From contig CAZWLZ010000001.1 in NCBI GenBank assembly GCA_964634505.1, positions 1-43,772 on the forward strand: a DNA stretch of 43,772 bases, given 5' to 3'. Each line of letters opens with the position of its first letter. Within the stretch, counting starts at the first letter, position 1. Of this stretch, positions 993-40,149 are shown in pieces. Under the pieces are notes generated by a model. The model did not search any database. It was not told where the DNA came from and was given only the letters and a program-made list of their open reading frames with translations. The position numbers and the translations under genes are program-made. The DNA comes from an uncultured bacterium. Its GTDB lineage: Bacteria; Cyanobacteriota; Cyanobacteriia; Cyanobacteriales; Cyanobacteriaceae.

Positions 993-1023
993 CAAATAAT
1001 TAAAATATTACCATATTATCATA

Positions 1024-1038
1024 GGGGTTTTAAACCCC
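1024..1038. terminator. Probable bidirectional intrinsic terminator hairpin between convergent infC and the rubrerythrin gene
   Basis: GGGGTTT-T-AAACCCC stem-loop in the 62-nt gap between the two stop codons. It is flanked by T-rich sequence (TTATTTGTG) on the plus strand and by A/T-rich sequence on the other side. Confidence 0.5.
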
Positions 1039-1054
1039 TTATTTGTGCTATCAA

Positions 1055-1765
1055 TTACTTGGCGATCGCCTCTTCATAAGGAACAAAAAGTTTTTTCTGT
1101 GCCCCACAAATAGGACAATACCAATCATCGGGAATCTCTTCAAAAGCAGTACCAGCAGGGATTCCACTGTCAATATCTCCTACTACAGGATCATAAATCA
1201 TGGAACATTGACGACAAATCCATTTGCGAGTAAGAGGATTATCATCAACAATTTTTGGTATGGCTTCTTTACCGTCTAAAATATTAAGGGCTTCTGTATA
1301 TTGATTGGCGTGATGATTTTCAATGCTAGTTAAAAAAGCAAAGTTTTGTGCTGCTTTACGAAAAATAGCGGCGTGTTGTTTTGATTCGGTTTCTTGGGCT
1401 TCAAATTCTGCTTGTGCTGATTCATCCCGATCCATTTTTGCTTGACTGGCAAATTCAGGATACATAGTAGTATATTCATAAGTTTCCCCTTCGATCGCCA
1501 ATTCTAAACAACGAGTGGCAATTTGTTTTTTTTGTTCATCTGTTAATTGACTTGTATCCACAACTAATTCAGGATGAATAAGGCGAAAATGGGCGAAAGC
1601 GTGTTCTGTTTCTTGATTAGCGGTTTCTTTAAATAATTTTGATAACTCCTTAAAACCAAGTTCTTTAGTAAGTTCAGCAAAAAATAAATATTTACGATTA
1701 GCCATCGATTCTCCCCCAAAAGCTGCTTCTAAGTTTTTGGCGGTGTTAGCGTTTGATAAATCCAT
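1055..1765 (-). CDS. Rubrerythrin-family diiron protein with a C-terminal rubredoxin domain
   Basis: The N-terminal ferritin-like four-helix region has E..EH-type motifs (NQETEHAFAHF, EGETYEY, ESKQHAAIF). The C-terminal rubredoxin reads WICRQC...DDWYCPICGAQK, i.e. two CxxC pairs. Confidence 0.88.
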   Translation of the reverse strand: MDLSNANTAKNLEAAFGGESMANRKYLFFAELTKELGFKELSKLFKETANQETEHAFAHFRLIHPELVVDTSQLTDEQKKQIATRCLELAIEGETYEYTTMYPEFASQAKMDRDESAQAEFEAQETESKQHAAIFRKAAQNFAFLTSIENHHANQYTEALNILDGKEAIPKIVDDNPLTRKWICRQCSMIYDPVVGDIDSGIPAGTAFEEIPDDWYCPICGAQKKLFVPYEEAIAK

Positions 1766-1857
1766 TTTATCTCCTTTGGTTGTGACTTGATATTCAAGAA
1801 TAATTGTTGTTTTCTAAAATGTCAACAAGACAAATATTTGCTCAATTAATTTAACTC

Positions 1858-2643
1858 TTATTTAACCATTAATTGTCTTTGACGTTCATATAAAAGTAGA
1901 GAATTGGCGATCGCCACGTTAAGAGATTCCACCTCATTAAGAAGAGGAATAGTAACTTTTTGATCAGCAATTTGATTTAAAGAAGAAGATAAACCCTTAC
2001 TTTCATTACCGAATAAAATTAAACTAGGAAGGGTAAAATCTAATTGCCAATAAGTTTTAGTGGCGGTAGGTAAAGTAGCAATAATTTGCATTCCTTGATT
2101 TTGATAAAATTTAACCACTGTCAGCAAATCATCAGAATTGATCATATTAATTTTAAACCATTCTCCAGCAGAAGCCCTCATAACTTTAGGATGATCAAAA
2201 TCAACACTATCATTACTAAGCCATAAACAATCAACATTAGTAGCCACTGCCGTGCGAATTATTGTACCTAAATTGCCGGGGTCTTGAATTGATTCTAAAA
2301 TTAAACCTAATTTGATAGACTCGGGCATTTTTTTTCGCCAATTATCCCGAGAAGCTATAGCTAAAACACCGTCTGGGTTAACAGTAGTAGCAATAAATTT
2401 AAGAATTTCTGGGGCTACAGTTTCTACTTTTAAAGCCAGTCTTGTTAAACTTTGCCATAAATTATTATTTTCTTGTTGCCATTGAGAAGTAGTAATTAAA
2501 GTTTTTAAAGGATAATTAATTTGACTGACTACTTCTAAGGAATTTTTACCTTCAATCAAAAATAAATTTTGTTTGTGTCTTTCTTTAGCATTATGTAATT
2601 TTCTAATTTCCTTAATCAAAGGATTTTTAATACTTGTTAACAT
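1858..2643 (-). CDS. TrmH/SpoU-family RNA 2'-O-ribose methyltransferase
   Basis: SPOUT motifs are present: LESIQDPGNLGTIIRTA, LILFGNESKGLS, IPLLNEVESLNVAIANSLLLYE. Length is 261 aa, typical of group 3 TrmH/RlmB-like enzymes. Confidence 0.85.
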   Translation of the reverse strand: MLTSIKNPLIKEIRKLHNAKERHKQNLFLIEGKNSLEVVSQINYPLKTLITTSQWQQENNNLWQSLTRLALKVETVAPEILKFIATTVNPDGVLAIASRDNWRKKMPESIKLGLILESIQDPGNLGTIIRTAVATNVDCLWLSNDSVDFDHPKVMRASAGEWFKINMINSDDLLTVVKFYQNQGMQIIATLPTATKTYWQLDFTLPSLILFGNESKGLSSSLNQIADQKVTIPLLNEVESLNVAIANSLLLYERQRQLMVK

Positions 2644-2880
2644 TTATTTATTTGACATTACTTTCTTTTATTGAGACAAAACCTTCGATTTTAGGAGATC
2701 GCCATTTCAGATTTGAAAGGTGATGCAGAATTAACCAGTTTTTGTCCTTTTAAATTAGTTTGAAAAATACTTGCTTTTCAGAAGCCTAACAGCTAACTTA
2801 AACTTAAGTAGTGATATTATAGGATGTTTTACCATGTATTTGTTTCTGGTAATTACAGCGGATAACCCTTAAATTAGCAC

Positions 2881-3531
2881 CTAGCGAAAAGTAAATTTCT
2901 CAAACCATGAACCAGTCATTTCTGGTAGCGGAAGTTCCCCATTAAGAGGTGAAAGGCAAATGATATAGCCCACTGAAGTTAGTTTACCCTCATTATCGTA
3001 GTCATCTAAGTCTGATTCGAGCTTTTCTTGATACCTTTCATATTCTTCATCATCAAGGGTTTCCATAAAAGTTGGACTTGATGAGTAAGCATAGATATTA
3101 ACCTCATAAAAATCGGGTGGTACATCTATTACTTGAAAAATCATAAAATTCTCTCTAGGCGGTTTTCCCGAAATTGCATGAGACAAATCTTCAGCGACAC
3201 AGCTACACAGTAAGATTAATTTCCCACAGGGAATATTGAGTTTCCAAGTAAGTCGGGCGCACCAGTCGTTCTGTTCTTGATTTGTTAAATCCCCAATTAC
3301 AAAAAGTGTTTTGCGATCTAAGACACAATAACCATTGAAAAGTATCGGCATACAAATCCCCTGATCTAATAAGGGAGCAATATCTTGGGCTGAACCGTTT
3401 AAAACAATGTCAGAAATTTGACTAGGAGTTAAAGCACTACCCCCCAAACTAGCGGAGGTAAGTACATATCCATCACCATCACAAAAGAAATAGGGAGATA
3501 TAGGAATGCGTAAATTAATTTGGTTTTTCAC
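2881..3531 (-). CDS. Hypothetical protein (216 aa) with an acidic C-terminal segment; co-oriented downstream partner of the zinc-ribbon nuclease gene
   Basis: Long ORF with a GTG start (complement of 3529-3531), 92 nt downstream of the 593-aa gene on the same strand. GC is higher than in flanking genes. I recognise no family. The acidic stretch reads LDDEEYERYQEKLESDLDDYDNEG. Confidence 0.6.
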   Translation of the reverse strand: MKNQINLRIPISPYFFCDGDGYVLTSASLGGSALTPSQISDIVLNGSAQDIAPLLDQGICMPILFNGYCVLDRKTLFVIGDLTNQEQNDWCARLTWKLNIPCGKLILLCSCVAEDLSHAISGKPPRENFMIFQVIDVPPDFYEVNIYAYSSSPTFMETLDDEEYERYQEKLESDLDDYDNEGKLTSVGYIICLSPLNGELPLPEMTGSWFEKFTFR

Positions 3532-3623
3532 GACTTATTAGAAAATTTCAAGTAAAAATAGCAATAAATGGGAATGTTAAGTTTTATACCTCAATTGAAA
3601 TATATTGGCTACTGGCGATCTTG

Positions 3624-5405
3624 TTAATCAGTCGGATACAAATGGCGGATAGGTGGCGTTTGTTTAGATGCTTTTCGTCGACTGAGTGATCTATTTTTCT
3701 TAGCACAGATAGGACACCACGTACCAAAAAGCACATTACTAGGTCTAGCATTCCATTGGTGGCTTTCTTGGCACTCCCAGAGAAGAGGGGTGATACTATT
3801 AACGTACTTTGTTGATAAACACTTCCCACCACGGGCAACTGCTACAGCGTGCATATCTTGGATATTTCTACCTCTGCCAAGACATTTTGGACACCAACTA
3901 CCGCTATTCTTTACGTTATTTGGTGCAGCTCTAAACCGATGACCCTTGGCACATTCCCATTCTAAGTGTTCAAATATCCCCAAGTATTTCTCAGAAATTA
4001 GTTTTCCATCACGCTCGAGTGCAATAGCCTGCAATTCTCCTAATTTATTAGGAGAGTAAACTGAGCTTAAGCTGACCTCTTTATTTTCAAAGTTAGAAGG
4101 TAGCGGAATACCATTTTTTAACAATTCCTCACTAATAAAAAATTTAACATTTTCAATGCCAAGTATTTCTAAAATGGATGGAACTTCTATAAGAGTTATT
4201 CCATTATTTCTGCATAAATCACGCTTTTTTTGATCATTTTCTTGAATCTTCTTTAACTTAGTTTTTGAAGAATCAAAGAATTTAATGCTTCTGTAATGTT
4301 GCGTTCCCTGATGCTCAAACGCAATCTTTAAAGTTTGAGAATAACCATCTAGTTCCATTTGATAACCATCAGAATTACGAAGCCAATTTGGTCTAGCCTT
4401 TTTGAAAGGATGCTCCAAAAGCTGTTCAAAAAATTCTCGACAGATACGTTCTCCTAATCCAGCACTGCAAGTAGTACACCAGCCTCCTCTAAAAATAACT
4501 GATGGAATTGTTTCCCAGCGATGTCCCTCCTGACATTCCCACAAAAGTTTCTTATTAACTCTTTCATAAACGGTTGACAAGCATTTTCCCCCACGTTCTA
4601 ATGCAATTCTTTGCATATCTTCGATGGTCTTTAATTGGTTTCCTGCACAAGTAGGACACCATTTCCCCCCATTGATAATGTTGTCAGCATTAGCCATCCA
4701 TTGATGACCTTCAGCACACTTCCATAAGAGATGGTCTTTAACATTAACAAATTTGACAGATAGGCATACACCACCCTTACTAACAGCAAATGTTTGCATT
4801 TCCTCTATCGTGTGCGTTTTTCGTTTTTCTGCACGAATTTTCAGAGCACATTTGGGACACCATCTTCCATTCTTGACATGATGTGCATCAGCTTCCCAAA
4901 TATGCCCCTGTGAACATTGCCAAGTTAATTTCTTGATGACACTTTCAAATTGAGATGATAGACACATACCTCCAAATGAACTTGCTAAGTCTTGCATATC
5001 TTTGACAGTATGCTTTCTCCGATTTTTGTCGCTTTTGGCTCGTCCACACACTGGACACCACCTGCCCAAAGTTTGAATATTCTGTGGAATAGCCTCCCAC
5101 TGATGTCCTTCTGCACATTTCCAAATGTGTTTGGTTTTCATGCCTAGAAAATTTTCAGATAAGCATTCTCCACCAAATTTACTTGCTAAGTCCCGTAAAT
5201 CCTGAATAGTTCTTCCCTTCCCAGCACAGAATGGACACCAGTTACCAGCCTTAAGATAATCTCGGCAAGATTCAAACTGATGTCCATGCTTGCACTTAAA
5301 AAGTAGCTTATTGGTACAATTTACATATTCATTAGAAAGACAGCAACCACCACGTTTTCTGGCTATTTCATGCAACTCTTCAAGCAACTGTTGTTTATCT
5401 CTCAT
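3624..5405 (-). CDS. Multi-repeat zinc-ribbon protein (5 N-terminal + 2 C-terminal repeats) with an embedded PD-(D/E)xK (Vsr/DUF559-like) nuclease core
   Basis: Seven ~60-66 aa modules fit GGxCLSxxY-x6-LxWxCxxGHxW-x13-WCPxC. The central segment reads ...YQMELDGYSQTLKIAFEHQGTQHY...LCRNNGITLIEVP, giving D353-x10-E364-x-Q366. The DNA-level motif GGACACCA (complement encodes WCP) recurs at 3712, 3889, 4654, 4855, 5053 and 5233. Confidence 0.7.
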   Translation of the reverse strand: MRDKQQLLEELHEIARKRGGCCLSNEYVNCTNKLLFKCKHGHQFESCRDYLKAGNWCPFCAGKGRTIQDLRDLASKFGGECLSENFLGMKTKHIWKCAEGHQWEAIPQNIQTLGRWCPVCGRAKSDKNRRKHTVKDMQDLASSFGGMCLSSQFESVIKKLTWQCSQGHIWEADAHHVKNGRWCPKCALKIRAEKRKTHTIEEMQTFAVSKGGVCLSVKFVNVKDHLLWKCAEGHQWMANADNIINGGKWCPTCAGNQLKTIEDMQRIALERGGKCLSTVYERVNKKLLWECQEGHRWETIPSVIFRGGWCTTCSAGLGERICREFFEQLLEHPFKKARPNWLRNSDGYQMELDGYSQTLKIAFEHQGTQHYRSIKFFDSSKTKLKKIQENDQKKRDLCRNNGITLIEVPSILEILGIENVKFFISEELLKNGIPLPSNFENKEVSLSSVYSPNKLGELQAIALERDGKLISEKYLGIFEHLEWECAKGHRFRAAPNNVKNSGSWCPKCLGRGRNIQDMHAVAVARGGKCLSTKYVNSITPLLWECQESHQWNARPSNVLFGTWCPICAKKNRSLSRRKASKQTPPIRHLYPTD

Positions 5406-5776
5406 CGATTGATTATTCTTACCTCAAACTAGTAAATGCTATCGATAATATTCTTTATATCCTTTGCGATAAATGAAGCTAGCTAACTTAGTAATTCTAT
5501 CATAACTGTTGCCTAACTGCATCTAACTAGCATTATTTCTGTACTTGGTAATTAATTATTTTTTCATTAATTTTCATTAATACCCTTAAAAATAAAGTCA
5601 TTACTATTTTATATCAATATTGTTAATATTTTTTTTAATAATTATTTACATTTGGAGATAGAGAAAAGTTTTTATACAATACAATTTTTAATAACAAATT
5701 ACCATAAAAATTAATAAATGTGTTATAAAATAAAATCTAAGTAATAACTATACTTTTGTTCAAATCAGCAAAAAAA

Positions 5777-6004
5777 ATGTTTAAAAAACCTAGTTTCGAT
5801 TCTTCTAAAATTATGTATCGTAGCGATGAATTATTAGATGCCGCTTCTAATCGCTATCGCATCACTGTACAAGTTGCTAAACGTGCCAAACAAAGACGCT
5901 TTGAGGATTATGATAATTTAGATGAAGTGATGAAACCAGTTTTACGGGCGATCGTTGAAATGGCTGACGAATTAACAGAAAATGATATTATTAGCGACTC
6001 ATGA
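5777..6004 (+). CDS. rpoZ: DNA-directed RNA polymerase subunit omega
   Basis: AASNRYRITVQVAKRAKQRR...MKPVLRAIVEMADEL is the cyanobacterial RpoZ signature. I prefer ATG at 5777 (75 aa, matching typical cyanobacterial RpoZ length and N-terminus) over the track's TTG at 5756. Confidence 0.9.
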   Translation: MFKKPSFDSSKIMYRSDELLDAASNRYRITVQVAKRAKQRRFEDYDNLDEVMKPVLRAIVEMADELTENDIISDS

Positions 6005-6627
6005 AGAAATCTAGCTTTATTTTTCACCATAAATTATGGAAAAATACTTTAGAGTTATTTTTAGCTTCCCTCATTGGCTTTATTTTGCCTTTTTGGGTAG
6101 CCAATATTACTCCTAAACAACCAGATTTTGCGAATAATAGTTTTTTAAAACCTGTTTTTGCCCAAAGTCTGACTCCTGAAATCGTGGCTAAACAAGTTTA
6201 TGAAAAAATACCCGATTTTCCTAAAGAAAATCAATATCTTCGTCAAGATTCTAAGGCAGTTGATTTAGATAATACTTTAATTAGTAGAATTGTTCGTTAT
6301 CATCAGTATGTTAAAGCTCGTCCGACTGCTTTTCGTCTTGATTGGAAGTTGACTTTGGCTGATTATTTGAATGCTAATGAAGTTATTTTACCTAATCGTT
6401 ATCCGGGTGTTAGCACTTTAACAGAAAACCCCCTAATTTTAGACCAAAAGGCGATCGATAATTTAACTATATCTCAACGAGATCAATTAGTTGCTATTTT
6501 AGTTAGTATTTATAATCCAAGTATTGATCAAAATTCTAATTCTACTCCCACTCCCACTATAAAACCGACTACTCCTTCTCCTCCTCCTTTACCATCGCCA
6601 AAAGGGGCAGAATTACTTTTACCTTAA
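6001..6627 (+). CDS. Hypothetical signal-anchored protein with a Pro/Thr-rich C-terminal tail
   Basis: N-terminal hydrophobic helix LELFLASLIGFILPFWVANI. C-terminal tail NSTPTPTIKPTTPSPPPLPSP. Its ATG overlaps the rpoZ stop (ATGA at 6001-6004). No family recognised. Confidence 0.6.
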   Translation: MKKSSFIFHHKLWKNTLELFLASLIGFILPFWVANITPKQPDFANNSFLKPVFAQSLTPEIVAKQVYEKIPDFPKENQYLRQDSKAVDLDNTLISRIVRYHQYVKARPTAFRLDWKLTLADYLNANEVILPNRYPGVSTLTENPLILDQKAIDNLTISQRDQLVAILVSIYNPSIDQNSNSTPTPTIKPTTPSPPPLPSPKGAELLLP

Positions 6628-6647
6628 TTGATTAATTTTATTTATGC

Positions 6648-7298
6648 TTATTTTTTTGATTTTAAGTAAGCAAAAACTGATTTATCACCAATATCAGAGG
6701 GGATTGCTTGGGTAAATTTACGAAGGGCAAAAACAATAAATAATAATGCCCAACTAGCTAATAAAATTTTTTCGATTAATAAGGGTAAAAACCCTAATAA
6801 GTGTCCTAATAATAAGAATGGAACAAGTATGGTTAAAATTTTTGTTTCTAAACGATTAAAACAAATTCCTTCTTTAAAATAAATGCCTGTTAAGGCTGCA
6901 AAAATAAAGCCTATTCCTAACAGATTTAAAGGATTTTCATATATAAATAAAACTAATGATTGATCACTTTTTAGGTTGATAATTATGGCTGAAATTGTAC
7001 CAATTAACCAAAATATTTTTAATAAATTATGTAAAAATGCTAAGTAAATATGGATAGTAGATAGGCTTATTATTAAACTCAGGGCAAAAATTGCAAAAAG
7101 TGGCGTTAAAGTATCTAAAACGTTCTCATTTGCCCCTTTCCATAAGATTAAAACAGTCCCCATAGCAAAGCTAAAACTAGCTAAAAATAAACTTAAACGA
7201 TAAATAATGACTTCTTGGCGATCGCCATCATTAATCGTAAAATTACCGTATTCACCTTTATAAACAATAGTGTCAGATTCTAATGATTGAATATTCAT
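6648..7298 (-). CDS. Multi-pass integral membrane protein (possibly the cyanobacterial DUF2301 family; unverified)
   Basis: 216 aa with about 6 hydrophobic segments, e.g. LSLFLASFSFAMGTVLILW, LFAIFALSLIISLSTIHIYLAF, ILTILVPFLLLGHLLGFLPLL. The family assignment is from memory only. Confidence 0.6.
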   Translation of the reverse strand: MNIQSLESDTIVYKGEYGNFTINDGDRQEVIIYRLSLFLASFSFAMGTVLILWKGANENVLDTLTPLFAIFALSLIISLSTIHIYLAFLHNLLKIFWLIGTISAIIINLKSDQSLVLFIYENPLNLLGIGFIFAALTGIYFKEGICFNRLETKILTILVPFLLLGHLLGFLPLLIEKILLASWALLFIVFALRKFTQAIPSDIGDKSVFAYLKSKK

Positions 7299-7334
7299 AT
7301 AAAATAATAAAAAATTTAAAATTTGTAATTATAA

Positions 7335-8003
7335 CTATAATTCCCAATTTATAGGAGATTGAGAAGATTTTTGTAAGGCTAAATTAATTTGAGAAAAAGG
7401 TTTACTACCAAAAAAACCTTTATTTGCAGAAAAAGGGGAAGGATGGGGGGATTTAATTATAAAATGTTTTGCGGTATTAATTAACTCAATTTTTCTTTGA
7501 GCAAATTGCCCCCAAAGTACGAATATAATAGGATTAGAATTGCGATTAAGTAAGCTAATTACAGCATTTGTAAACATTTCCCAACCTTTATCTTTATGAG
7601 AATTGGCTTCATGGATTCTTACCGTTAAAACTGTATTAAGCATCAAAATTCCTTGTTTTGCCCAATTCGATAAATCCCCGTGAGTTGGTATAGGTAATTT
7701 TTGATCTTGATTTAACTCTTTGAAAATGTTATCTAAAGAAGGAGGTATTTTTGCTCCTTTTTTCACCGAAAAACTTAAACCATGAGCTTGATTAACATTA
7801 TGATAAGGGTCTTGTCCTAAAATTACAACCTTTACTTCTGGGAAGGGAGTTAATTGAAAAGCAGTAAACACTTCCTCTTCAGAAGGAAATATTTGATATT
7901 TCTTTCTTTCTTGATTAATAAATTTTTGTAACAAAATAAAATAAGGTTGTTCGATTTCTGATTTTAAGTAAGGTAACCAAGTTTCTAATTGATTTATATT
8001 CAT
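7335..8003 (-). CDS. ung: Uracil-DNA glycosylase, family 1
   Basis: Canonical motifs VVILGQDPYH (water-activating loop), GILMLNTVLTV and HPSPFSA (intercalation-loop HPSPLS variant). Length 222 aa. Confidence 0.93.
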   Translation of the reverse strand: MNINQLETWLPYLKSEIEQPYFILLQKFINQERKKYQIFPSEEEVFTAFQLTPFPEVKVVILGQDPYHNVNQAHGLSFSVKKGAKIPPSLDNIFKELNQDQKLPIPTHGDLSNWAKQGILMLNTVLTVRIHEANSHKDKGWEMFTNAVISLLNRNSNPIIFVLWGQFAQRKIELINTAKHFIIKSPHPSPFSANKGFFGSKPFSQINLALQKSSQSPINWEL

Positions 8004-19642: not shown

Positions 19643-21874
19643 ATGTCTCACCCTCTTTATGTTGCTTTCATTTGGCATCAACATCAACCCTTATATAAAT
19701 CTCGTGATATTCATCCTGATTATGGTGGCCAATATCGTTTACCTTGGGCTAGATTACATGGTACAAAAGATTATCTTGATTTAATTTTATTCTTAGATAA
19801 TTATCCCGAATTACATCAAACTGTTAATCTTGTACCTTCTTTAATTTTACAGTTGGAAGATTATGCAGATGGATCGGCGATCGATCCTTATTTGGCTTTA
19901 ACTTTGACTCCTGCTGAAACTTTAAACCGAAAACAAAAACAATATATTCTTGAGCATTTTTTTGACGCTAATCATCATACTATGATTGATCCGCATCCTC
20001 GTTATCGTCAATTATATGAACAAAAACAACATGAAGGTATCAGTTGGTGTTTACAAAATTGGAAAGTAGAAGATTATGCGGATTTATTAGCTTGGCATAA
20101 TTTAGCTTGGATTGATCCTATTTTTTGGGGTGATGATGAAATTAGCGGCTGGTTAGAAAAAGGAAAAGGTTTTAATTTAAGCGATCGCCAACGAATTTAC
20201 TCCAAACAAAAGGACATCATTTTTCAAATTATTCCTCAGCATAAAAAAATGCAAGATGAAGGACAACTAGAAATAATCACAAGTCCTTACACTCACCCCA
20301 TTTTACCCTTGCTAGCCCATAGTCAAGCAGGTAAAATTGCTGTACCCAATATGACTTTACCGGAAACCGCTTTTCAATGGGAAGAAGATATTGCCCGTCA
20401 TTTAGAGAAATCTTGGTATTTTTATCAAGAAAGATTTGGCATGAAACCTCGAGGATTATGGCCTAGCGAACAATCTGTTAGTCCTGAAATTTTGCCTTAT
20501 ATCAGCAAACAAGGCTTTAAATGGCTAGTTTCTGATGAAGCAGTTTTAGGTTGGAGTTTAAATCATTTTTTCCATCGAGATGAAATCGGTAATATCTATC
20601 AACCAGAACTTTTATATCGCCCTTACAAATTGAATACTGATTACGGTGATTTGGCGATCGTTTTTCGTGATCATCGACTTTCTGATTTAATTGGTTTTAC
20701 CTATGGCTCAATGAAACCAGATCAAGCAGCAGCCGATTTAGTAGGACATTTAGAAGCTATTAATCGTAATTATCAACATCATCATAATGATCAACCTTGG
20801 TTAGTCACCATCGCCTTAGATGGAGAAAATTGTTGGGAATTTTATGAAAAAGACGGCAAACCCTTTTTAGAATCACTCTATCATCGATTAGCAGGAGAAA
20901 CAGATATTAAATTAGTTACCGTCTCCGAATTTTTAGATAAATTTCCTCCTACTGCCACTATTGATAGCCATAAACTCCATAGCGGCTCTTGGGTTGACGG
21001 TAATTTTACTACTTGGATTGGCGATCGCCATAAAAATAAAGCATGGAGTTACTTATTAGCAGCCAGAGAAACTCTAGCAAAACACCCCGAAGCCACAGAA
21101 AAAAACAACCCAGAAGCATGGGAAGCCTTATACGCAGCCGAAGGATCAGATTGGTTTTGGTGGTTTGGCGAACCCCATCACTCCAACCACGATGAAATCT
21201 TCGATCAACTATTCAGAGAACATTTAATCACAATTTATAAAGCATTAAATGAACCAATTCCTAGCTATTTAAAACACCCCTTAGAAATACATCAAGCACA
21301 AAAAAATGATCACAACCCTCAAGGATTTATTCACCCCATCATCAATGGGCTATTAGACGAACAAGATTGGGAAAAGGCTGGAAAAATCGAAATAGGCGGA
21401 TCAAGAGGTACAATGCACCGTAATAGTATCGTTCCACGCTTATTTTACGGTTGGGATCACCTTAACTTTTATTTTCGTTTTGACATCCAAGAAGGGATAA
21501 AAATAAATCAAGGTTTCCCCTCAGAAATTCATCTATATTGGTTTTACCCTAATCTTAGTGGCATAAATTCCCCAATTCCTTTGATAAATTTACCAGATCA
21601 AGCACCAATTAATTATTTTTATCGTTATCATCTAGGAATTAACTTAGTAACCAAAACATTTTGGTTGGAAGAAGCAGGAACAGATTATCATTGGTATGCT
21701 CGTAATTGTCATGCAGAAATTGGAATAAATCAATGTATTGAAATAGGAATACCTTGGTCAGATTTACATATATTCCCAGACTCAGAAATGCAATTAACAA
21801 TTATTTTGGCTGAAAAAGGCGAATTTAAACAATATTTACCAGAAAATACCTTAATTCGTTTACAAGTACCTTAA
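19643..21874 (+). CDS. Glycoside hydrolase family 57 protein (alpha-glucan-active enzyme)
   Basis: All five GH57 conserved regions are present: HQHQPLY, GQLEIITSPYTHPILP, LWPSEQSVS, ALDGENCWE, AAEGSDWFWWFG. Length 743 aa. The stop lies 12 nt before the palindrome axis. Confidence 0.9.
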   Translation: MSHPLYVAFIWHQHQPLYKSRDIHPDYGGQYRLPWARLHGTKDYLDLILFLDNYPELHQTVNLVPSLILQLEDYADGSAIDPYLALTLTPAETLNRKQKQYILEHFFDANHHTMIDPHPRYRQLYEQKQHEGISWCLQNWKVEDYADLLAWHNLAWIDPIFWGDDEISGWLEKGKGFNLSDRQRIYSKQKDIIFQIIPQHKKMQDEGQLEIITSPYTHPILPLLAHSQAGKIAVPNMTLPETAFQWEEDIARHLEKSWYFYQERFGMKPRGLWPSEQSVSPEILPYISKQGFKWLVSDEAVLGWSLNHFFHRDEIGNIYQPELLYRPYKLNTDYGDLAIVFRDHRLSDLIGFTYGSMKPDQAAADLVGHLEAINRNYQHHHNDQPWLVTIALDGENCWEFYEKDGKPFLESLYHRLAGETDIKLVTVSEFLDKFPPTATIDSHKLHSGSWVDGNFTTWIGDRHKNKAWSYLLAARETLAKHPEATEKNNPEAWEALYAAEGSDWFWWFGEPHHSNHDEIFDQLFREHLITIYKALNEPIPSYLKHPLEIHQAQKNDHNPQGFIHPIINGLLDEQDWEKAGKIEIGGSRGTMHRNSIVPRLFYGWDHLNFYFRFDIQEGIKINQGFPSEIHLYWFYPNLSGINSPIPLINLPDQAPINYFYRYHLGINLVTKTFWLEEAGTDYHWYARNCHAEIGINQCIEIGIPWSDLHIFPDSEMQLTIILAEKGEFKQYLPENTLIRLQVP

Positions 21875-21898
21875 ATTAATAATTTATAAATTATTAAT

Positions 21899-24130
21899 TT
21901 AAGGTACTTGTAAACGAATTAAGGTATTTTCTGGTAAATATTGTTTAAATTCGCCTTTTTCAGCCAAAATAATTGTTAATTGCATTTCTGAGTCTGGGAA
22001 TATATGTAAATCTGACCAAGGTATTCCTATTTCAATACATTGATTTATTCCAATTTCTGCATGACAATTACGAGCATACCAATGATAATCTGTTCCTGCT
22101 TCTTCCAACCAAAATGTTTTGGTTACTAAGTTAATTCCTAGATGATAACGATAAAAATAATTAATTGGTGCTTGATCTGGTAAATTTATCAAAGGAATTG
22201 GGGAATTTATGCCACTAAGATTAGGGTAAAACCAATATAGATGAATTTCTGAGGGGAAACCTTGATTTATTTTTATCCCTTCTTGGATGTCAAAACGAAA
22301 ATAAAAGTTAAGGTGATCCCAACCGTAAAATAAGCGTGGAACGATACTATTACGGTGCATTGTACCTCTTGATCCGCCTATTTCGATTTTTCCAGCCTTT
22401 TCCCAATCTTGTTCGTCTAATAGCCCATTGATGATGGGGTGAATAAATCCTTGAGGGTTGTGATCATTTTTTTGTGCTTGATGTATTTCTAAGGGGTGTT
22501 TTAAATAGCTAGGAATTGGTTCATTTAATGCTTTATAAATTGTGATTAAATGTTCTCTGAATAGTTGATCGAAGATTTCATCGTGGTTGGAGTGATGGGG
22601 TTCGCCAAACCACCAAAACCAATCTGATCCTTCGGCTGCGTATAAGGCTTCCCATGCTTCTGGGTTGTTTTTTTCTGTGGCTTCGGGGTGTTTTGCTAGA
22701 GTTTCTCTGGCTGCTAATAAGTAACTCCATGCTTTATTTTTATGGCGATCGCCAATCCAAGTAGTAAAATTACCGTCAACCCAAGAGCCGCTATGGAGTT
22801 TATGGCTATCAATAGTGGCAGTAGGAGGAAATTTATCTAAAAATTCGGAGACGGTAACTAATTTAATATCTGTTTCTCCTGCTAATCGATGATAGAGTGA
22901 TTCTAAAAAGGGTTTGCCGTCTTTTTCATAAAATTCCCAACAATTTTCTCCATCTAAGGCGATGGTGACTAACCAAGGTTGATCATTATGATGATGTTGA
23001 TAATTACGATTAATAGCTTCTAAATGTCCTACTAAATCGGCTGCTGCTTGATCTGGTTTCATTGAGCCATAGGTAAAACCAATTAAATCAGAAAGTCGAT
23101 GATCACGAAAAACGATCGCCAAATCACCGTAATCAGTATTCAATTTGTAAGGGCGATATAAAAGTTCTGGTTGATAGATATTACCGATTTCATCTCGATG
23201 GAAAAAATGATTTAAACTCCAACCTAAAACTGCTTCATCAGAAACTAGCCATTTAAAGCCTTGTTTGCTGATATAAGGCAAAATTTCAGGACTAACAGAT
23301 TGTTCGCTAGGCCATAATCCTCGAGGTTTCATGCCAAATCTTTCTTGATAAAAATACCAAGATTTCTCTAAATGACGGGCAATATCTTCTTCCCATTGAA
23401 AAGCGGTTTCCGGTAAAGTCATATTGGGTACAGCAATTTTACCTGCTTGACTATGGGCTAGCAAGGGTAAAATGGGGTGAGTGTAAGGACTTGTGATTAT
23501 TTCTAGTTGTCCTTCATCTTGCATTTTTTTATGCTGAGGAATAATTTGAAAAATGATGTCCTTTTGTTTGGAGTAAATTCGTTGGCGATCGCTTAAATTA
23601 AAACCTTTTCCTTTTTCTAACCAGCCGCTAATTTCATCATCACCCCAAAAAATAGGATCAATCCAAGCTAAATTATGCCAAGCTAATAAATCCGCATAAT
23701 CTTCTACTTTCCAATTTTGTAAACACCAACTGATACCTTCATGTTGTTTTTGTTCATATAATTGACGATAACGAGGATGCGGATCAATCATAGTATGATG
23801 ATTAGCGTCAAAAAAATGCTCAAGAATATATTGTTTTTGTTTTCGGTTTAAAGTTTCAGCAGGAGTCAAAGTTAAAGCCAAATAAGGATCGATCGCCGAT
23901 CCATCTGCATAATCTTCCAACTGTAAAATTAAAGAAGGTACAAGATTAACAGTTTGATGTAATTCGGGATAATTATCTAAGAATAAAATTAAATCAAGAT
24001 AATCTTTTGTACCATGTAATCTAGCCCAAGGTAAACGATATTGGCCACCATAATCAGGATGAATATCACGAGATTTATATAAGGGTTGATGTTGATGCCA
24101 AATGAAAGCAACATAAAGAGGGTGAGACAT
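21899..24130 (-). CDS. GH57 protein (mirror copy of 19643..21874)
   Basis: Exact mirror: the coordinates sum to 43773 and the 743-aa protein is identical. Confidence 0.9.
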   Translation of the reverse strand: MSHPLYVAFIWHQHQPLYKSRDIHPDYGGQYRLPWARLHGTKDYLDLILFLDNYPELHQTVNLVPSLILQLEDYADGSAIDPYLALTLTPAETLNRKQKQYILEHFFDANHHTMIDPHPRYRQLYEQKQHEGISWCLQNWKVEDYADLLAWHNLAWIDPIFWGDDEISGWLEKGKGFNLSDRQRIYSKQKDIIFQIIPQHKKMQDEGQLEIITSPYTHPILPLLAHSQAGKIAVPNMTLPETAFQWEEDIARHLEKSWYFYQERFGMKPRGLWPSEQSVSPEILPYISKQGFKWLVSDEAVLGWSLNHFFHRDEIGNIYQPELLYRPYKLNTDYGDLAIVFRDHRLSDLIGFTYGSMKPDQAAADLVGHLEAINRNYQHHHNDQPWLVTIALDGENCWEFYEKDGKPFLESLYHRLAGETDIKLVTVSEFLDKFPPTATIDSHKLHSGSWVDGNFTTWIGDRHKNKAWSYLLAARETLAKHPEATEKNNPEAWEALYAAEGSDWFWWFGEPHHSNHDEIFDQLFREHLITIYKALNEPIPSYLKHPLEIHQAQKNDHNPQGFIHPIINGLLDEQDWEKAGKIEIGGSRGTMHRNSIVPRLFYGWDHLNFYFRFDIQEGIKINQGFPSEIHLYWFYPNLSGINSPIPLINLPDQAPINYFYRYHLGINLVTKTFWLEEAGTDYHWYARNCHAEIGINQCIEIGIPWSDLHIFPDSEMQLTIILAEKGEFKQYLPENTLIRLQVP

Positions 24131-38367: not shown

Positions 38368-40149
38368 ATGAGAGATAAACAACAGTTGCTTGAAGAGTTG
38401 CATGAAATAGCCAGAAAACGTGGTGGTTGCTGTCTTTCTAATGAATATGTAAATTGTACCAATAAGCTACTTTTTAAGTGCAAGCATGGACATCAGTTTG
38501 AATCTTGCCGAGATTATCTTAAGGCTGGTAACTGGTGTCCATTCTGTGCTGGGAAGGGAAGAACTATTCAGGATTTACGGGACTTAGCAAGTAAATTTGG
38601 TGGAGAATGCTTATCTGAAAATTTTCTAGGCATGAAAACCAAACACATTTGGAAATGTGCAGAAGGACATCAGTGGGAGGCTATTCCACAGAATATTCAA
38701 ACTTTGGGCAGGTGGTGTCCAGTGTGTGGACGAGCCAAAAGCGACAAAAATCGGAGAAAGCATACTGTCAAAGATATGCAAGACTTAGCAAGTTCATTTG
38801 GAGGTATGTGTCTATCATCTCAATTTGAAAGTGTCATCAAGAAATTAACTTGGCAATGTTCACAGGGGCATATTTGGGAAGCTGATGCACATCATGTCAA
38901 GAATGGAAGATGGTGTCCCAAATGTGCTCTGAAAATTCGTGCAGAAAAACGAAAAACGCACACGATAGAGGAAATGCAAACATTTGCTGTTAGTAAGGGT
39001 GGTGTATGCCTATCTGTCAAATTTGTTAATGTTAAAGACCATCTCTTATGGAAGTGTGCTGAAGGTCATCAATGGATGGCTAATGCTGACAACATTATCA
39101 ATGGGGGGAAATGGTGTCCTACTTGTGCAGGAAACCAATTAAAGACCATCGAAGATATGCAAAGAATTGCATTAGAACGTGGGGGAAAATGCTTGTCAAC
39201 CGTTTATGAAAGAGTTAATAAGAAACTTTTGTGGGAATGTCAGGAGGGACATCGCTGGGAAACAATTCCATCAGTTATTTTTAGAGGAGGCTGGTGTACT
39301 ACTTGCAGTGCTGGATTAGGAGAACGTATCTGTCGAGAATTTTTTGAACAGCTTTTGGAGCATCCTTTCAAAAAGGCTAGACCAAATTGGCTTCGTAATT
39401 CTGATGGTTATCAAATGGAACTAGATGGTTATTCTCAAACTTTAAAGATTGCGTTTGAGCATCAGGGAACGCAACATTACAGAAGCATTAAATTCTTTGA
39501 TTCTTCAAAAACTAAGTTAAAGAAGATTCAAGAAAATGATCAAAAAAAGCGTGATTTATGCAGAAATAATGGAATAACTCTTATAGAAGTTCCATCCATT
39601 TTAGAAATACTTGGCATTGAAAATGTTAAATTTTTTATTAGTGAGGAATTGTTAAAAAATGGTATTCCGCTACCTTCTAACTTTGAAAATAAAGAGGTCA
39701 GCTTAAGCTCAGTTTACTCTCCTAATAAATTAGGAGAATTGCAGGCTATTGCACTCGAGCGTGATGGAAAACTAATTTCTGAGAAATACTTGGGGATATT
39801 TGAACACTTAGAATGGGAATGTGCCAAGGGTCATCGGTTTAGAGCTGCACCAAATAACGTAAAGAATAGCGGTAGTTGGTGTCCAAAATGTCTTGGCAGA
39901 GGTAGAAATATCCAAGATATGCACGCTGTAGCAGTTGCCCGTGGTGGGAAGTGTTTATCAACAAAGTACGTTAATAGTATCACCCCTCTTCTCTGGGAGT
40001 GCCAAGAAAGCCACCAATGGAATGCTAGACCTAGTAATGTGCTTTTTGGTACGTGGTGTCCTATCTGTGCTAAGAAAAATAGATCACTCAGTCGACGAAA
40101 AGCATCTAAACAAACGCCACCTATCCGCCATTTGTATCCGACTGATTAA
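38368..40149 (+). CDS. Seven-repeat zinc-ribbon protein with PD-(D/E)xK/Vsr-like nuclease core (mirror copy of 3624..5405)
   Basis: Exact mirror; identical 593-aa protein. Codons read directly on this strand: D353 = GAT 39424-39426, E364 = GAG 39457-39459, Q366 = CAG 39463-39465. Confidence 0.7.
   Translation: MRDKQQLLEELHEIARKRGGCCLSNEYVNCTNKLLFKCKHGHQFESCRDYLKAGNWCPFCAGKGRTIQDLRDLASKFGGECLSENFLGMKTKHIWKCAEGHQWEAIPQNIQTLGRWCPVCGRAKSDKNRRKHTVKDMQDLASSFGGMCLSSQFESVIKKLTWQCSQGHIWEADAHHVKNGRWCPKCALKIRAEKRKTHTIEEMQTFAVSKGGVCLSVKFVNVKDHLLWKCAEGHQWMANADNIINGGKWCPTCAGNQLKTIEDMQRIALERGGKCLSTVYERVNKKLLWECQEGHRWETIPSVIFRGGWCTTCSAGLGERICREFFEQLLEHPFKKARPNWLRNSDGYQMELDGYSQTLKIAFEHQGTQHYRSIKFFDSSKTKLKKIQENDQKKRDLCRNNGITLIEVPSILEILGIENVKFFISEELLKNGIPLPSNFENKEVSLSSVYSPNKLGELQAIALERDGKLISEKYLGIFEHLEWECAKGHRFRAAPNNVKNSGSWCPKCLGRGRNIQDMHAVAVARGGKCLSTKYVNSITPLLWECQESHQWNARPSNVLFGTWCPICAKKNRSLSRRKASKQTPPIRHLYPTD

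What the first reader, a model, noticed from the sequence alone, without database searches (positions are those of the whole stretch)
3624..5405. 593-aa protein: seven tandem CHCC zinc-ribbon modules split 5+2 around a Vsr/DUF559-like PD-(D/E)xK core
Seen directly:
- Seven ~60-66-aa repeats have the consensus (I/M)x(D/E)(M/L)xxxAxxxGGxCLSxxYxxxxxxLxWxCxxGHxW-x13-WCPxC(x)G.
- Example repeats: LLFKCKHGHQF..NWCPFCAG, HIWKCAEGHQW..RWCPVCG, LTWQCSQGHIW..RWCPKCA, LLWKCAEGHQW..KWCPTCAG, LLWECQEGHRW..GWCTTCS, LEWECAKGHRF..SWCPKCLG, LLWECQESHQW..TWCPICA.
- The periodicity also shows in the DNA. GGACACCA occurs at 3712, 3889, 4654, 4855, 5053 and 5233, spaced about 177-201 nt within each block.
- Between repeats 5 and 6 lies GERICREFFEQLL...YQMELDGYSQTLKIAFEHQGTQHY...DQKKRDLCRNNGITLIEVP.
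- The D353...E364-x-Q366 spacing and the following helix/strand pattern match the restriction-endonuclease-like fold of the Vsr/DUF559 group.

From memory, the repeat resembles treble-clef zinc-ribbon repeats annotated as DUF4379-like. I cannot verify this here. A nuclease core embedded in an array of seven putative nucleic-acid-binding zinc modules is an unusual architecture, and I do not recognise it as characterised.
Basis: partly seen in the sequence, partly recalled or inferred. Interest (0 to 1): 0.65.

Follow-up and report, generated by a model that had tools for sequence, protein, structure and literature searches.

The report
Zinc-module homing-type nuclease in cyanobacterium
This gene encodes a probable site-specific DNA-cutting enzyme: a Vsr-like nuclease domain with five zinc-binding DNA-recognition modules before it and two after, belonging to a very large family of selfish "homing endonuclease"-type genes that has been recognised by computation but never tested biochemically, so it is a real but fairly ordinary find.

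Summary
ORF 3624-5405, on the minus strand, encodes a 593-aa protein. It has seven ~60-aa CHCC modules (Pfam DUF4379, E=9e-25) arranged 5+2 around a 135-aa core.

The core models with high confidence (pLDDT 90.8) as an alpha-beta-beta-beta-alpha-beta restriction-endonuclease fold. Its best solved-structure matches are E. coli Vsr and the homing endonuclease I-Bth0305I. E319, D353, E364, H370 and D391 are invariant in relatives.

The architecture is not rare:
- The core profile finds 30,583 cluster representatives.
- Relatives occur in cyanobacteria, Bacillus, phages and giant viruses, with 3-8 modules on the N side and 0-9 on the C side.
- PHROGs label the matching families "endonuclease" or "homing endonuclease" (the top one, wrongly, "HNH endonuclease").
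- A 2025 NAR paper describes CapR/DUF4379-like modules plus an EDxHD/Vsr-like nuclease as a large unrecognised homing-endonuclease outgroup.
- A 2017 paper noted 4xDUF4379 plus a restriction endonuclease domain in Marseilleviridae.

In this Pseudanabaena-like genome the gene is a discrete 2.06-kb cassette with foreign GC (39% vs 31-32%). It is 89% identical in DNA to a copy in an unrelated cyanobacterial context. A sister strain carries an unrelated gene at the same site.

Verdict: a new member of a known, biochemically uncharacterised kind. The whole window is also an assembly fold-back palindrome.

The parts
3624..5405 (-). Complete ORF of 593 aa plus stop: the zinc-module / Vsr-like nuclease gene
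   Evidence: dN/dS is 0.11-0.20 against three homologues, so it is under purifying selection.
5211..5387 (-). Module 1 (aa 7-65), CHCC zinc-ribbon/treble-clef-like; ligands C38, H42, C57, C60
5034..5213 (-). Module 2 (aa 65-124); ligands C97, H101, C117, C120
4833..5012 (-). Module 3 (aa 132-191); ligands C164, H168, C183, C186
4635..4814 (-). Module 4 (aa 198-257); ligands C230, H234, C250, C253
4461..4631 (-). Module 5 (aa 259-315); ligands C291, H295, C310, C313
4056..4460 (-). Nuclease core (aa 316-450), Vsr/EDxHD-like PD-(D/E)xK fold. E319, D353, E364, H370 and D391 are invariant; H365 is H, Y or F (83, 25 and 2 of 110 core sequences); K394 is nearly invariant.
3867..4046 (-). Module 6 (aa 454-513); ligands C485, H489, C505, C508. 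It lacks the extra GGxC cysteine (DGKLIS).
3690..3869 (-). Module 7 (aa 513-572); ligands C545, H549, C564, C567
3627..3689 (-). Basic C-terminal tail (aa 573-593), predicted disordered
   Evidence: pLDDT below 50 for aa 573-593
3622..5682 (.). Strain-variable cassette between rpoZ and ORF216. This block is absent from sister strains, which carry other DNA at the same site.
38368..40149 (+). Mirror copy of the same ORF, created by the fold-back palindromic assembly (artefact)

Best explanation
The gene encodes a sequence-specific DNA endonuclease of the free-standing homing-endonuclease type.

Seven ~60-aa modules, five before and two after the catalytic domain, each probably bind one zinc ion through Cys-x3-His ... 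Cys-x2-Cys. Together they are inferred to read a long DNA site. This inference rests on their relationship to the CapR DNA-binding domain, whose DNA binding was shown experimentally to need its four cysteines.

The central domain has the Vsr/I-Bth0305I variant of the restriction-endonuclease fold. By analogy with Vsr:
- D353 and E364 are inferred to hold the catalytic Mg2+.
- H370 is inferred to act as general base.
- E319 and D391 are inferred to support the active site.

The gene is a self-contained 2-kb cassette acquired horizontally. It sits in a strain-variable site between rpoZ and a conserved hypothetical gene.

Shown here: the domain composition, the fold, residue conservation, purifying selection, foreign GC, presence/absence polymorphism, and different contexts in other genomes.

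Inferred only: zinc binding, DNA binding, cleavage, target site and homing.
For: Modules:
- Pfam DUF4379 matches at 9e-25.
- Relatives also hit the Pfam CapR domain, down to 2e-48.
- The C/H/C/C positions are 98-100% conserved in 1,202 modules.
- Loss of CapR's four cysteines abolishes its DNA binding (PMC8096241).

Core:
- AlphaFold2 gives pLDDT 90.8 and an a-b-b-b-a-b topology.
- The top Foldseek PDB matches are Vsr (prob 0.99), the R2 restriction-like endonuclease and I-Bth0305I.
- In the viral library, 92 matches have E<=1e-3. They include proteins named "Restriction endonuclease", "Homing endonuclease" and "VSR endonuclease".
- PHROG hits: phrog_559 at 1e-73 and phrog_681 at 7e-52 for the whole protein; phrog_9084 "homing endonuclease" at 6e-12 for the core alone.
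- E319, D353, E364, H370 and D391 are invariant. Their spacing mirrors Vsr E25, D51, T63, H69 and D97.

Selection and mobility:
- dN/dS is 0.11-0.20.
- GC is 39% against 31-32% in the flanks. Homologues have 35-42% GC in hosts of 43-51%.
- DNA is 88.9% identical to a copy in an unrelated context, and the similarity is confined to the ORF plus 75 bp upstream.
- A sister strain with 94-97% identical flanks has an unrelated 480-aa gene at the same site. Two further strains break at 3580 and 5683.
- Phage homologues are free-standing between structural genes. One of them combines NUMOD4, CapR and the nuclease domain.
- 80 IMG/VR loci carry relatives, including giant-virus MAGs.
- A published description covers CapR/DUF4379-like modules plus an EDxHD/Vsr-like nuclease as homing endonucleases (PMC12350094).
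Against: - No member of the family has been tested biochemically.
- Sequence-level links to Vsr or solved structures are not significant: hhalign prob 0.3% and PDB hmmsearch E>0.6.
- Foldseek PDB E-values are only 0.03-0.3.
- No clean "empty" homing site was found. Sister alleles carry different cargo, so this is cassette replacement at a hotspot rather than demonstrated homing.
- The canonical Lys of PD-(D/E)xK is Q, H or N here.
- Homologues in other cyanobacteria lie beside toxin-antitoxin and GmrSD genes. That context also fits a defence role.
Confidence: 0.65

Rival explanations
1. It is a host defence nuclease: a stand-alone restriction-like enzyme carried in a defence or variable island, which cuts invading phage or plasmid DNA rather than promoting its own spread.
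For: - It lies in a strain-variable hotspot with alternative cargo genes.
- Homologues in Desertifilum and another cyanobacterium sit beside BrnT/BrnA, HicB, YoeB/Phd and GmrSD genes.
Against: - There is no PADLOC match.
- There is no partner methyltransferase or immunity gene in the cassette.
- The family is abundant in phages and giant viruses themselves, where copies are inserted between structural genes. That is typical of selfish nucleases.
Confidence: 0.15
2. It is a domesticated, catalytically silent DNA-binding protein, for example a CapR-like transcription regulator, that keeps only the DNA-binding function.
For: CapR is a precedent for domestication of this module type (PMC8096241).
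Against: - All putative catalytic residues are invariant across more than 100 homologues.
- The core is under purifying selection as strong as that on the modules.
- CapR lacks a nuclease domain altogether.
Confidence: 0.07
3. It is a housekeeping repair or RNA-processing enzyme. This would be either a Vsr-like mismatch nickase, or an RNA-acting enzyme like the Vsr-like RAP domains of FASTK proteins, with the zinc modules binding RNA.
For: - The fold resembles Vsr.
- Vsr-like domains act on RNA in FASTKD4 (PMC11879112, title only).
Against: - The distribution is patchy and strain-variable, and the GC is foreign.
- No Dcm-type methyltransferase is adjacent.
- The Vsr intercalating tryptophans and Vsr zinc site are not evident.
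Confidence: 0.05

Closest known systems
CapR/DUF4379-like-module + EDxHD/Vsr-like homing endonucleases of phage group I/II introns (PMC12350094, 2025)
   Same: - Both have ~60-aa Cys/His modules related to Pfam CapR/DUF4379.
- Both have a ~100-135-aa Vsr-like nuclease domain.
- The window core hits the corresponding PHROG families and phage proteins.
   Different: - Those proteins have 3-5 modules followed by a C-terminal nuclease and are intron-encoded.
- This one has the nuclease embedded between modules (5+2), is free-standing and is in a cyanobacterial chromosome.
- Neither has been assayed.
I-Bth0305I (EDxHD family prototype; PDB 3R3P; PMC3239194)
   Same: - Vsr-like catalytic fold (Foldseek prob 0.80-0.90, TM to target 0.59-0.60).
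- Conserved E/D/H/D set.
- Bipartite design: a DNA-binding region plus a nuclease.
   Different: - I-Bth0305I uses NUMOD/HTH DNA-binding motifs, not zinc modules.
- It is only 17-18% identical over the Foldseek structural alignment.
- It was not among the PDB sequence matches at E<=10.
- It is intron-encoded in phage recA.
E. coli Vsr very-short-patch repair endonuclease (PDB 1VSR/1CW0)
   Same: - It is the best structural match (prob 0.98-0.99, TM 0.50-0.54).
- The residue layout corresponds: D51/T63/H64/H69/D97 in Vsr against D353/E364/H365/H370/D391 here (partly my manual alignment).
   Different: - Vsr is a single-domain mismatch nickase paired with Dcm.
- hhalign is not significant.
- E364 replaces T63, restoring a classical PD-(D/E)xK acidic residue.
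Giant-virus "zinc-ribbon domain-containing" / "restriction endonuclease" proteins (e.g. Insectomime ISTM_159, 4xDUF4379 + restriction endonuclease; PMC5513546)
   Same: - Same domain combination.
- Core structural matches have TM 0.8-0.87, rmsd 1.6-2.3 A and 32-37% identity.
   Different: - They are viral and their module numbers differ.
- They too are uncharacterised.
CapR of the Vibrio cholerae PLE satellite (PMC8096241)
   Same: It has the same kind of Cys-rich DNA-binding module. Relatives of the window protein hit Pfam CapR strongly.
   Different: - CapR is a 15.5-kDa repressor without a nuclease domain.
- Its phage relatives carry T5orf172/GIY-YIG-type domains, not Vsr-like ones.
- The window protein itself does not reach a CapR hit.

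Membership tests
Pfam DUF4379 (PF14311, probable treble-clef zinc finger) | HMM score above the gathering threshold (24.5 bits) | tested here: met
   87.1 bits, E=9.2e-25, 6 stretches
Pfam DUF4379 (PF14311, probable treble-clef zinc finger) | Four zinc ligands conserved in every module | tested here: met
   C 100%, H 98%, C 100% and C 100% over 1,202 modules in 121 proteins. All seven modules of this protein have them.
Pfam DUF4379 (PF14311, probable treble-clef zinc finger) | Actual zinc binding and treble-clef geometry | not testable with these tools
   The model gives a beta-hairpin plus helix per module. Coordinates and metal content could not be examined.
Pfam CapR homology domain (PF21817) | HMM score above the gathering threshold (24.2 bits) | tested here: not met
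   The window protein has no CapR hit at E<=1. Relatives P0014, P0036 and P0027 score 85-163 bits.
EDxHD / Vsr-like homing endonucleases | Vsr-like nuclease fold | tested here: met
   Model pLDDT 90.8. 1vsr prob 0.99, TM 0.52/0.54; 3r3p prob 0.80-0.90, TMt 0.6. E-values are only 0.03-0.3.
EDxHD / Vsr-like homing endonucleases | Conserved catalytic E, D, H, D residues | tested here: met
   E319, D353, H370 and D391 are invariant in 110 and in 50 homologues. Equivalence to Vsr E25/D51/H69/D97 rests on spacing and a manual alignment. Only the D391~D97 segment was aligned by hhalign.
EDxHD / Vsr-like homing endonucleases | Statistically significant sequence similarity to Vsr or I-Bth0305I | tested here: not met
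   hhalign prob 0.3%, E 0.22. PDB phmmer and hmmsearch gave no relevant hit.
EDxHD / Vsr-like homing endonucleases | Site-specific DNA cleavage and homing into a cognate nuclease-free allele | not testable with these tools
   Only indirect evidence is available: cassette presence/absence at one locus, varied contexts and foreign GC.
PD-(D/E)xK superfamily | alpha-beta-beta-beta-alpha-beta core, with D on strand 2 and (D/E)xK on strand 3 | tested here: inconclusive
   The topology is met. D353 and E364 are invariant. The K position is Q, H or N (87, 18 and 5 of 110). A nearly invariant K394 on the next helix could substitute, but that is inference.
Pfam DUF559 / DUF2726 (Vsr-like PDDEXK families) | HMM score above the gathering threshold | tested here: not met
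   The window core has no hit. DUF2726 appears only weakly in 14 of 50 relatives, best E 0.0024.
HNH endonucleases (the label carried by phrog_559) | HNH/His-Me finger catalytic motif | tested here: not met
   There is no HNH Pfam hit at E<=1 and the fold is PD-(D/E)xK. The PHROG name appears to be a mis-annotation.
Known anti-phage defence systems (PADLOC-DB 2.0) | Match to any defence-protein model | tested here: not met
   0 families at E<=0.01

The most novel reading that the evidence does not exclude
The module arrays are a natural, modular zinc-finger-nuclease system. Each ~60-aa CHCC module would read a fixed short stretch of DNA. The observed variation in module number (3-8 on the N side, 0-9 on the C side of the nuclease) would then retarget the enzyme by module gain, loss and shuffling, giving a decipherable recognition code. 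The embedded position of the nuclease would place the cut inside the recognised site.
Probability: 0.12. Interest if true: 0.75.

Novelty: new member of a known kind. Interest (0 to 1): 0.33.

Why it matters
The family is very large. The core profile alone finds 30,583 representatives at 50% clustering. It spans cyanobacteria, Firmicutes, phages and giant viruses, yet no member has been assayed.

This example is clean and tractable:
- the ORF is intact and under purifying selection;
- the cassette boundaries are defined;
- a sister-strain allele lacks it.

It could therefore be used to determine the target site, the cleavage chemistry and whether the zinc modules recognise DNA in a modular way. 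It adds little conceptually beyond what was proposed computationally in 2025, and the 5+2 layout is only one of many module counts.

Tried and rejected
- **NCBIfam:** scan of the protein and of the core gave nothing relevant.
- **PDB sequence searches:** neither the protein nor the core profile gave anything beyond chance hits.
- **hhalign of the core profile against E. coli Vsr:** not significant.
- **Foldseek of the full-length model:** uninformative apart from 3r3p. pTM of 0.47 means the inter-domain arrangement is not predicted.
- **PADLOC:** no hit for the nuclease, its two neighbours or the alternative 480-aa cargo gene. Pfam on that cargo gene gave nothing above threshold.
- **Exact-sequence look-ups:** the nuclease and rpoZ are not on record.
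- **Genome-contig scan with ORF216:** returned one locus, Pseudanabaena sp. BL-A-41 at 81% identity. It shares no DNA-level similarity with the window beyond ORF216, and the ORFs flanking ORF216 differ in size, so it is useless as an empty-site control.
- **35-bp motif shared by the two cassettes upstream of their ORFs:** it occurs only once per genome copy in the window, so there is no evidence that it is a recombination site.
- **Promoter and terminator scans of the cassette:** no more hits than in shuffles.
- **Real inverted duplication, or a hairpin-ended replicon, as an explanation for the palindrome:** rejected, because two independent assemblies continue into different DNA at the centre.
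- **The 3,028-bp alternative insert of run X3:** could not be retrieved.
Full report
**1. Observation**

The interval 3624-5405 contains a single 593-codon ORF on the minus strand, starting at ATG 5405 with its stop codon at 3624-3626.

An HMM built from the seven repeats finds exactly seven modules: aa 7-65, 65-124, 132-191, 198-257, 259-315, 454-513 and 513-572. Each has E between 1e-32 and 8e-29. The modules are 32-47% identical to one another. The two signature motifs each occur seven times, whereas only 1-5% of 10,000 shuffles of the protein contain even one.

The DNA word GGACACCA at 3712, 3889, 4654, 4855, 5053 and 5233 is the reverse complement of TGG-TGT-CC, which encodes Trp-Cys-Pro.

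The gene is on the minus strand. And the entire window is a perfect palindrome with 0 mismatches to its own reverse complement, so a mirror copy lies at 38368-40149.

**2. The modules**

Pfam assigns the repeats to DUF4379, "probable treble clef zinc finger" (87 bits, E=9e-25, six stretches). Longer relatives also hit Pfam CapR (PF21817) at E down to 2e-48. The window protein itself does not reach a CapR hit.

Over 1,202 modules from 121 proteins, the four proposed ligand positions (C-x3-H ... C-x2-C) are 100%, 98%, 100% and 100% conserved. A fifth cysteine, in GGxCLS, is 94% conserved and is missing from module 6 here.

The full-length AlphaFold2 model has pLDDT 81.6 and pTM 0.47. It gives each module a helix, a beta-hairpin carrying C...H at its turn, a short helix and the WCPxC knuckle. 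The low pTM means the modules behave as beads on a string.

The only experimental anchor for function is CapR of the Vibrio PLE satellite. Its DNA binding was abolished when its four conserved cysteines were mutated (PMC8096241). Zinc and DNA binding by the modules here are therefore inferred.

**3. The core**

Residues ~316-450 occur once per protein in 117 of the 120 best homologues.
- Invariant: E319, F334, D353, G354, F363, E364, G367, H370, D391 and C398.
- Nearly invariant: E351, Q369 and K394.

A model built from a 50-sequence alignment is confident (pLDDT 90.8, pTM 0.84). It has the order helix-strand-strand-strand-helix-strand, which is the restriction-endonuclease core.

Foldseek against the PDB ranks, in this order:
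- Vsr first (1vsr: prob 0.99, TM 0.52/0.54; 1cw0: prob 0.98);
- the restriction-like endonuclease of R2 retrotransposons;
- I-Bth0305I (3r3p: prob 0.80, TM to target 0.60).

No PDB E-value is below 0.027.

Against predicted viral structures there are 92 matches at E<=1e-3. The best are giant-virus proteins with TM 0.8-0.87. Names among the matches include "Zinc-ribbon domain-containing protein", "Restriction endonuclease", "Uvr/REP helicase", "Homing endonuclease" (Enterococcus phage EFP01, Bacillus phage Bobb) and "VSR endonuclease" (phage iF6).

PHROGs gives:
- phrog_559 at 1e-73 and phrog_681 at 7e-52 for the whole protein;
- phrog_9084 "homing endonuclease" at 6e-12 and phrog_7140 "intron encoded nuclease" at 9e-9 for the core alone.

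The phrog_559 label "HNH endonuclease" is not supported by fold or motif.

Sequence-only links to solved structures fail. phmmer and hmmsearch against the PDB give nothing. hhalign of the core profile against E. coli Vsr is not significant (prob 0.3%), although the one segment it aligns pairs D391 with Vsr D97.

I took the Vsr sequence from the K-12 record and the Vsr/I-Bth0305I equivalences from Taylor et al. 2011 (PMC3239194). With these, the spacing D353-x9-F363-E364-H365-x4-H370 and D391-x10-G402 matches Vsr D51-x10-F62-T63-H64-x4-H69 and D97-x10-G108. E319 lies on the first helix, as does Vsr E25. This mapping is my manual inference.

It implies a Vsr-type active site in which the Thr63 position has become a classical acidic residue. 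The canonical lysine position is Q, H or N.

**4. How common it is**

- The whole protein finds 2,638 proteins at E<=1e-5 among the 8,000 candidates scored.
- The core profile, run against 1.84 billion cluster representatives, finds 30,583 at E<=1e-3, 9,582 at E<=1e-10 and 1,324 at E<=1e-30.
- Named sources include Desertifilum, Funiculus, Bacillus cereus group, Priestia, Lysinibacillus and Scalindua. All are annotated only as "zinc-ribbon domain-containing protein" or as hypothetical.
- Among the 118 best homologues with a core, the nuclease is almost always embedded between modules, with 3-8 on the N side and 0-9 on the C side. The 5+2 layout is confined to the 13 closest relatives.
- Eighty IMG/VR loci encode relatives, including giant-virus MAGs and contigs of 200-460 kb.
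- 53 GenBank phage records match the core.

In Enterococcus phage EFP01 the homologue sits alone between a virion structural protein gene and the tail assembly chaperone gene, in the tail gene block. In Thomasclavelia phage TR-TP1, two genes annotated "HNH endonuclease" flank the tape-measure gene; one of them (gp30) matched the core. That protein combines NUMOD4, CapR and a C-terminal nuclease. These are classic free-standing homing-endonuclease settings.

**5. Literature**

- A 2025 NAR paper on group II introns in phages describes homing endonucleases with three to five ~60-aa domains related to CapR, DUF4379 and DUF723, followed by a domain distantly related to EDxHD/Vsr. [quoted passage not shown] - I found no biochemical study of any member.

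**6. Genomic context and mobility**

The window is chromosomal DNA of a low-GC cyanobacterium. It carries infC, a rubrerythrin gene, a SpoU methylase gene, rpoZ, DUF2301, UDG, phytoene synthase, sufC/D and GH57 genes. Its nearest named relative for the neighbouring gene is Pseudanabaena sp. at 81%. The runs that hold the sequence are labelled gut and other metagenomes.

- **GC content.** The nuclease gene has 39% GC against 31-32% in the flanks. Homologues have 35-42% GC in hosts of 43-51%. The gene's composition departs from its host each time.
- **A copy elsewhere.** Its DNA is 88.9% identical over window 3650-5479 to a copy that lies among parA/parB, a DUF1016 nuclease gene and integrase remnants in another cyanobacterium. 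That span is just the ORF plus 75 bp upstream.
- **Other contexts.** Further homologues lie beside BrnT/A, HicB, Phd/YoeB and GmrSD genes.
- **A sister strain.** Locus L012 has flanks 97.4% and 94.3% identical and the same gene order, UDG-DUF2301-orf208-rpoZ ... ORF216. Window 3622-5682 is replaced there by 1,609 bp encoding an unrelated 480-aa protein with no Pfam or PADLOC match. Homology resumes 3 nt after the nuclease stop codon.
- **Two more strains.** Both break at 3580 and 5683, and one of them carries 3,028 other letters at the site.
- **Selection.** dN/dS against three homologues is 0.11-0.20 for both the core and the modules, so the gene is functional.

**7. Interpretation**

The best reading is a free-standing, horizontally mobile, homing-endonuclease-type gene. 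Its product uses arrays of zinc modules for long-site DNA recognition and a Vsr/EDxHD-like domain for Mg-dependent cleavage.

Homing itself is not shown. The alternative alleles hold other cargo rather than an empty site, so a defence-island nuclease remains a real rival (about 0.15). An inactive regulator or a repair or RNA-acting enzyme is unlikely, given the invariant catalytic residues and the patchy, strain-variable distribution.

**8. Verdict**

This is a new member of a very large family that has been recognised computationally and never characterised biochemically.

Interest is moderate to low (0.33). The main open prospect is that module number and identity encode target specificity in a modular way.

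**9. Side finding**

The window's perfect palindrome is an assembly fold-back at a natural ~50-bp inverted repeat just after the GH57 gene. Contigs from two other runs pass position 21894 into unlike sequence.

Noticed in passing
window 1-43772 (centre between 21886 and 21887): The whole window is a perfect palindrome, identical to its reverse complement with 0 mismatches, so every gene appears twice. Independent contigs from runs X2 and X3 continue into unlike DNA at 21894. The contig is therefore a fold-back assembly artefact, and only about 21.9 kb is unique.
   Followed up: yes
window 21861-21912: A natural perfect inverted repeat of about 50 bp (TACAAGTACCTTAAATTAATAATTTATAAATTATTAATTTAAGGTACTTGTA) begins immediately after the stop codon of the GH57 gene (ORF 19643-21874). 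It is probably a terminator hairpin and is the likely point where the assembler folded back.
   Followed up: partly
window 3581-5682; L012 2344-3952: The rpoZ-ORF216 intergenic site is a strain-variable hotspot with at least three different cargos in close relatives: this nuclease, an unrelated 480-aa ORF with no Pfam or PADLOC match, and a 3,028-bp insert that could not be retrieved.
   Followed up: partly
window 5628-5662; L012 2462-2496: A 35-bp stretch (91% identical between the two; a 21-bp core, TCTCCAAATGTAAATAATTAT, is identical) is shared by the two otherwise unrelated cassettes, upstream of or overlapping their start codons. It occurs only once per genome copy in the window. It could be a shared promoter or 5'UTR remnant, or a recombination boundary.
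   Followed up: partly
window 2881-3531 (-): ORF216 is a conserved cyanobacterial hypothetical protein with 71 homologues at E<=1e-20 and no Pfam, NCBIfam or PADLOC match. One source names a homologue as DUF4261-containing.
   Followed up: partly
PHROGs phrog_559: This PHROG family is labelled "HNH endonuclease", but it matches a protein whose nuclease domain has a Vsr-like PD-(D/E)xK fold and no HNH motif. The label is probably a propagated mis-annotation; GenBank phage records carry the same label.
   Followed up: partly
window 1000-8000 (runs X1, X2): The runs that hold this cyanobacterial sequence almost completely are labelled "gut metagenome". This suggests ingested or environmental cyanobacteria in a gut sample.
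   Followed up: no
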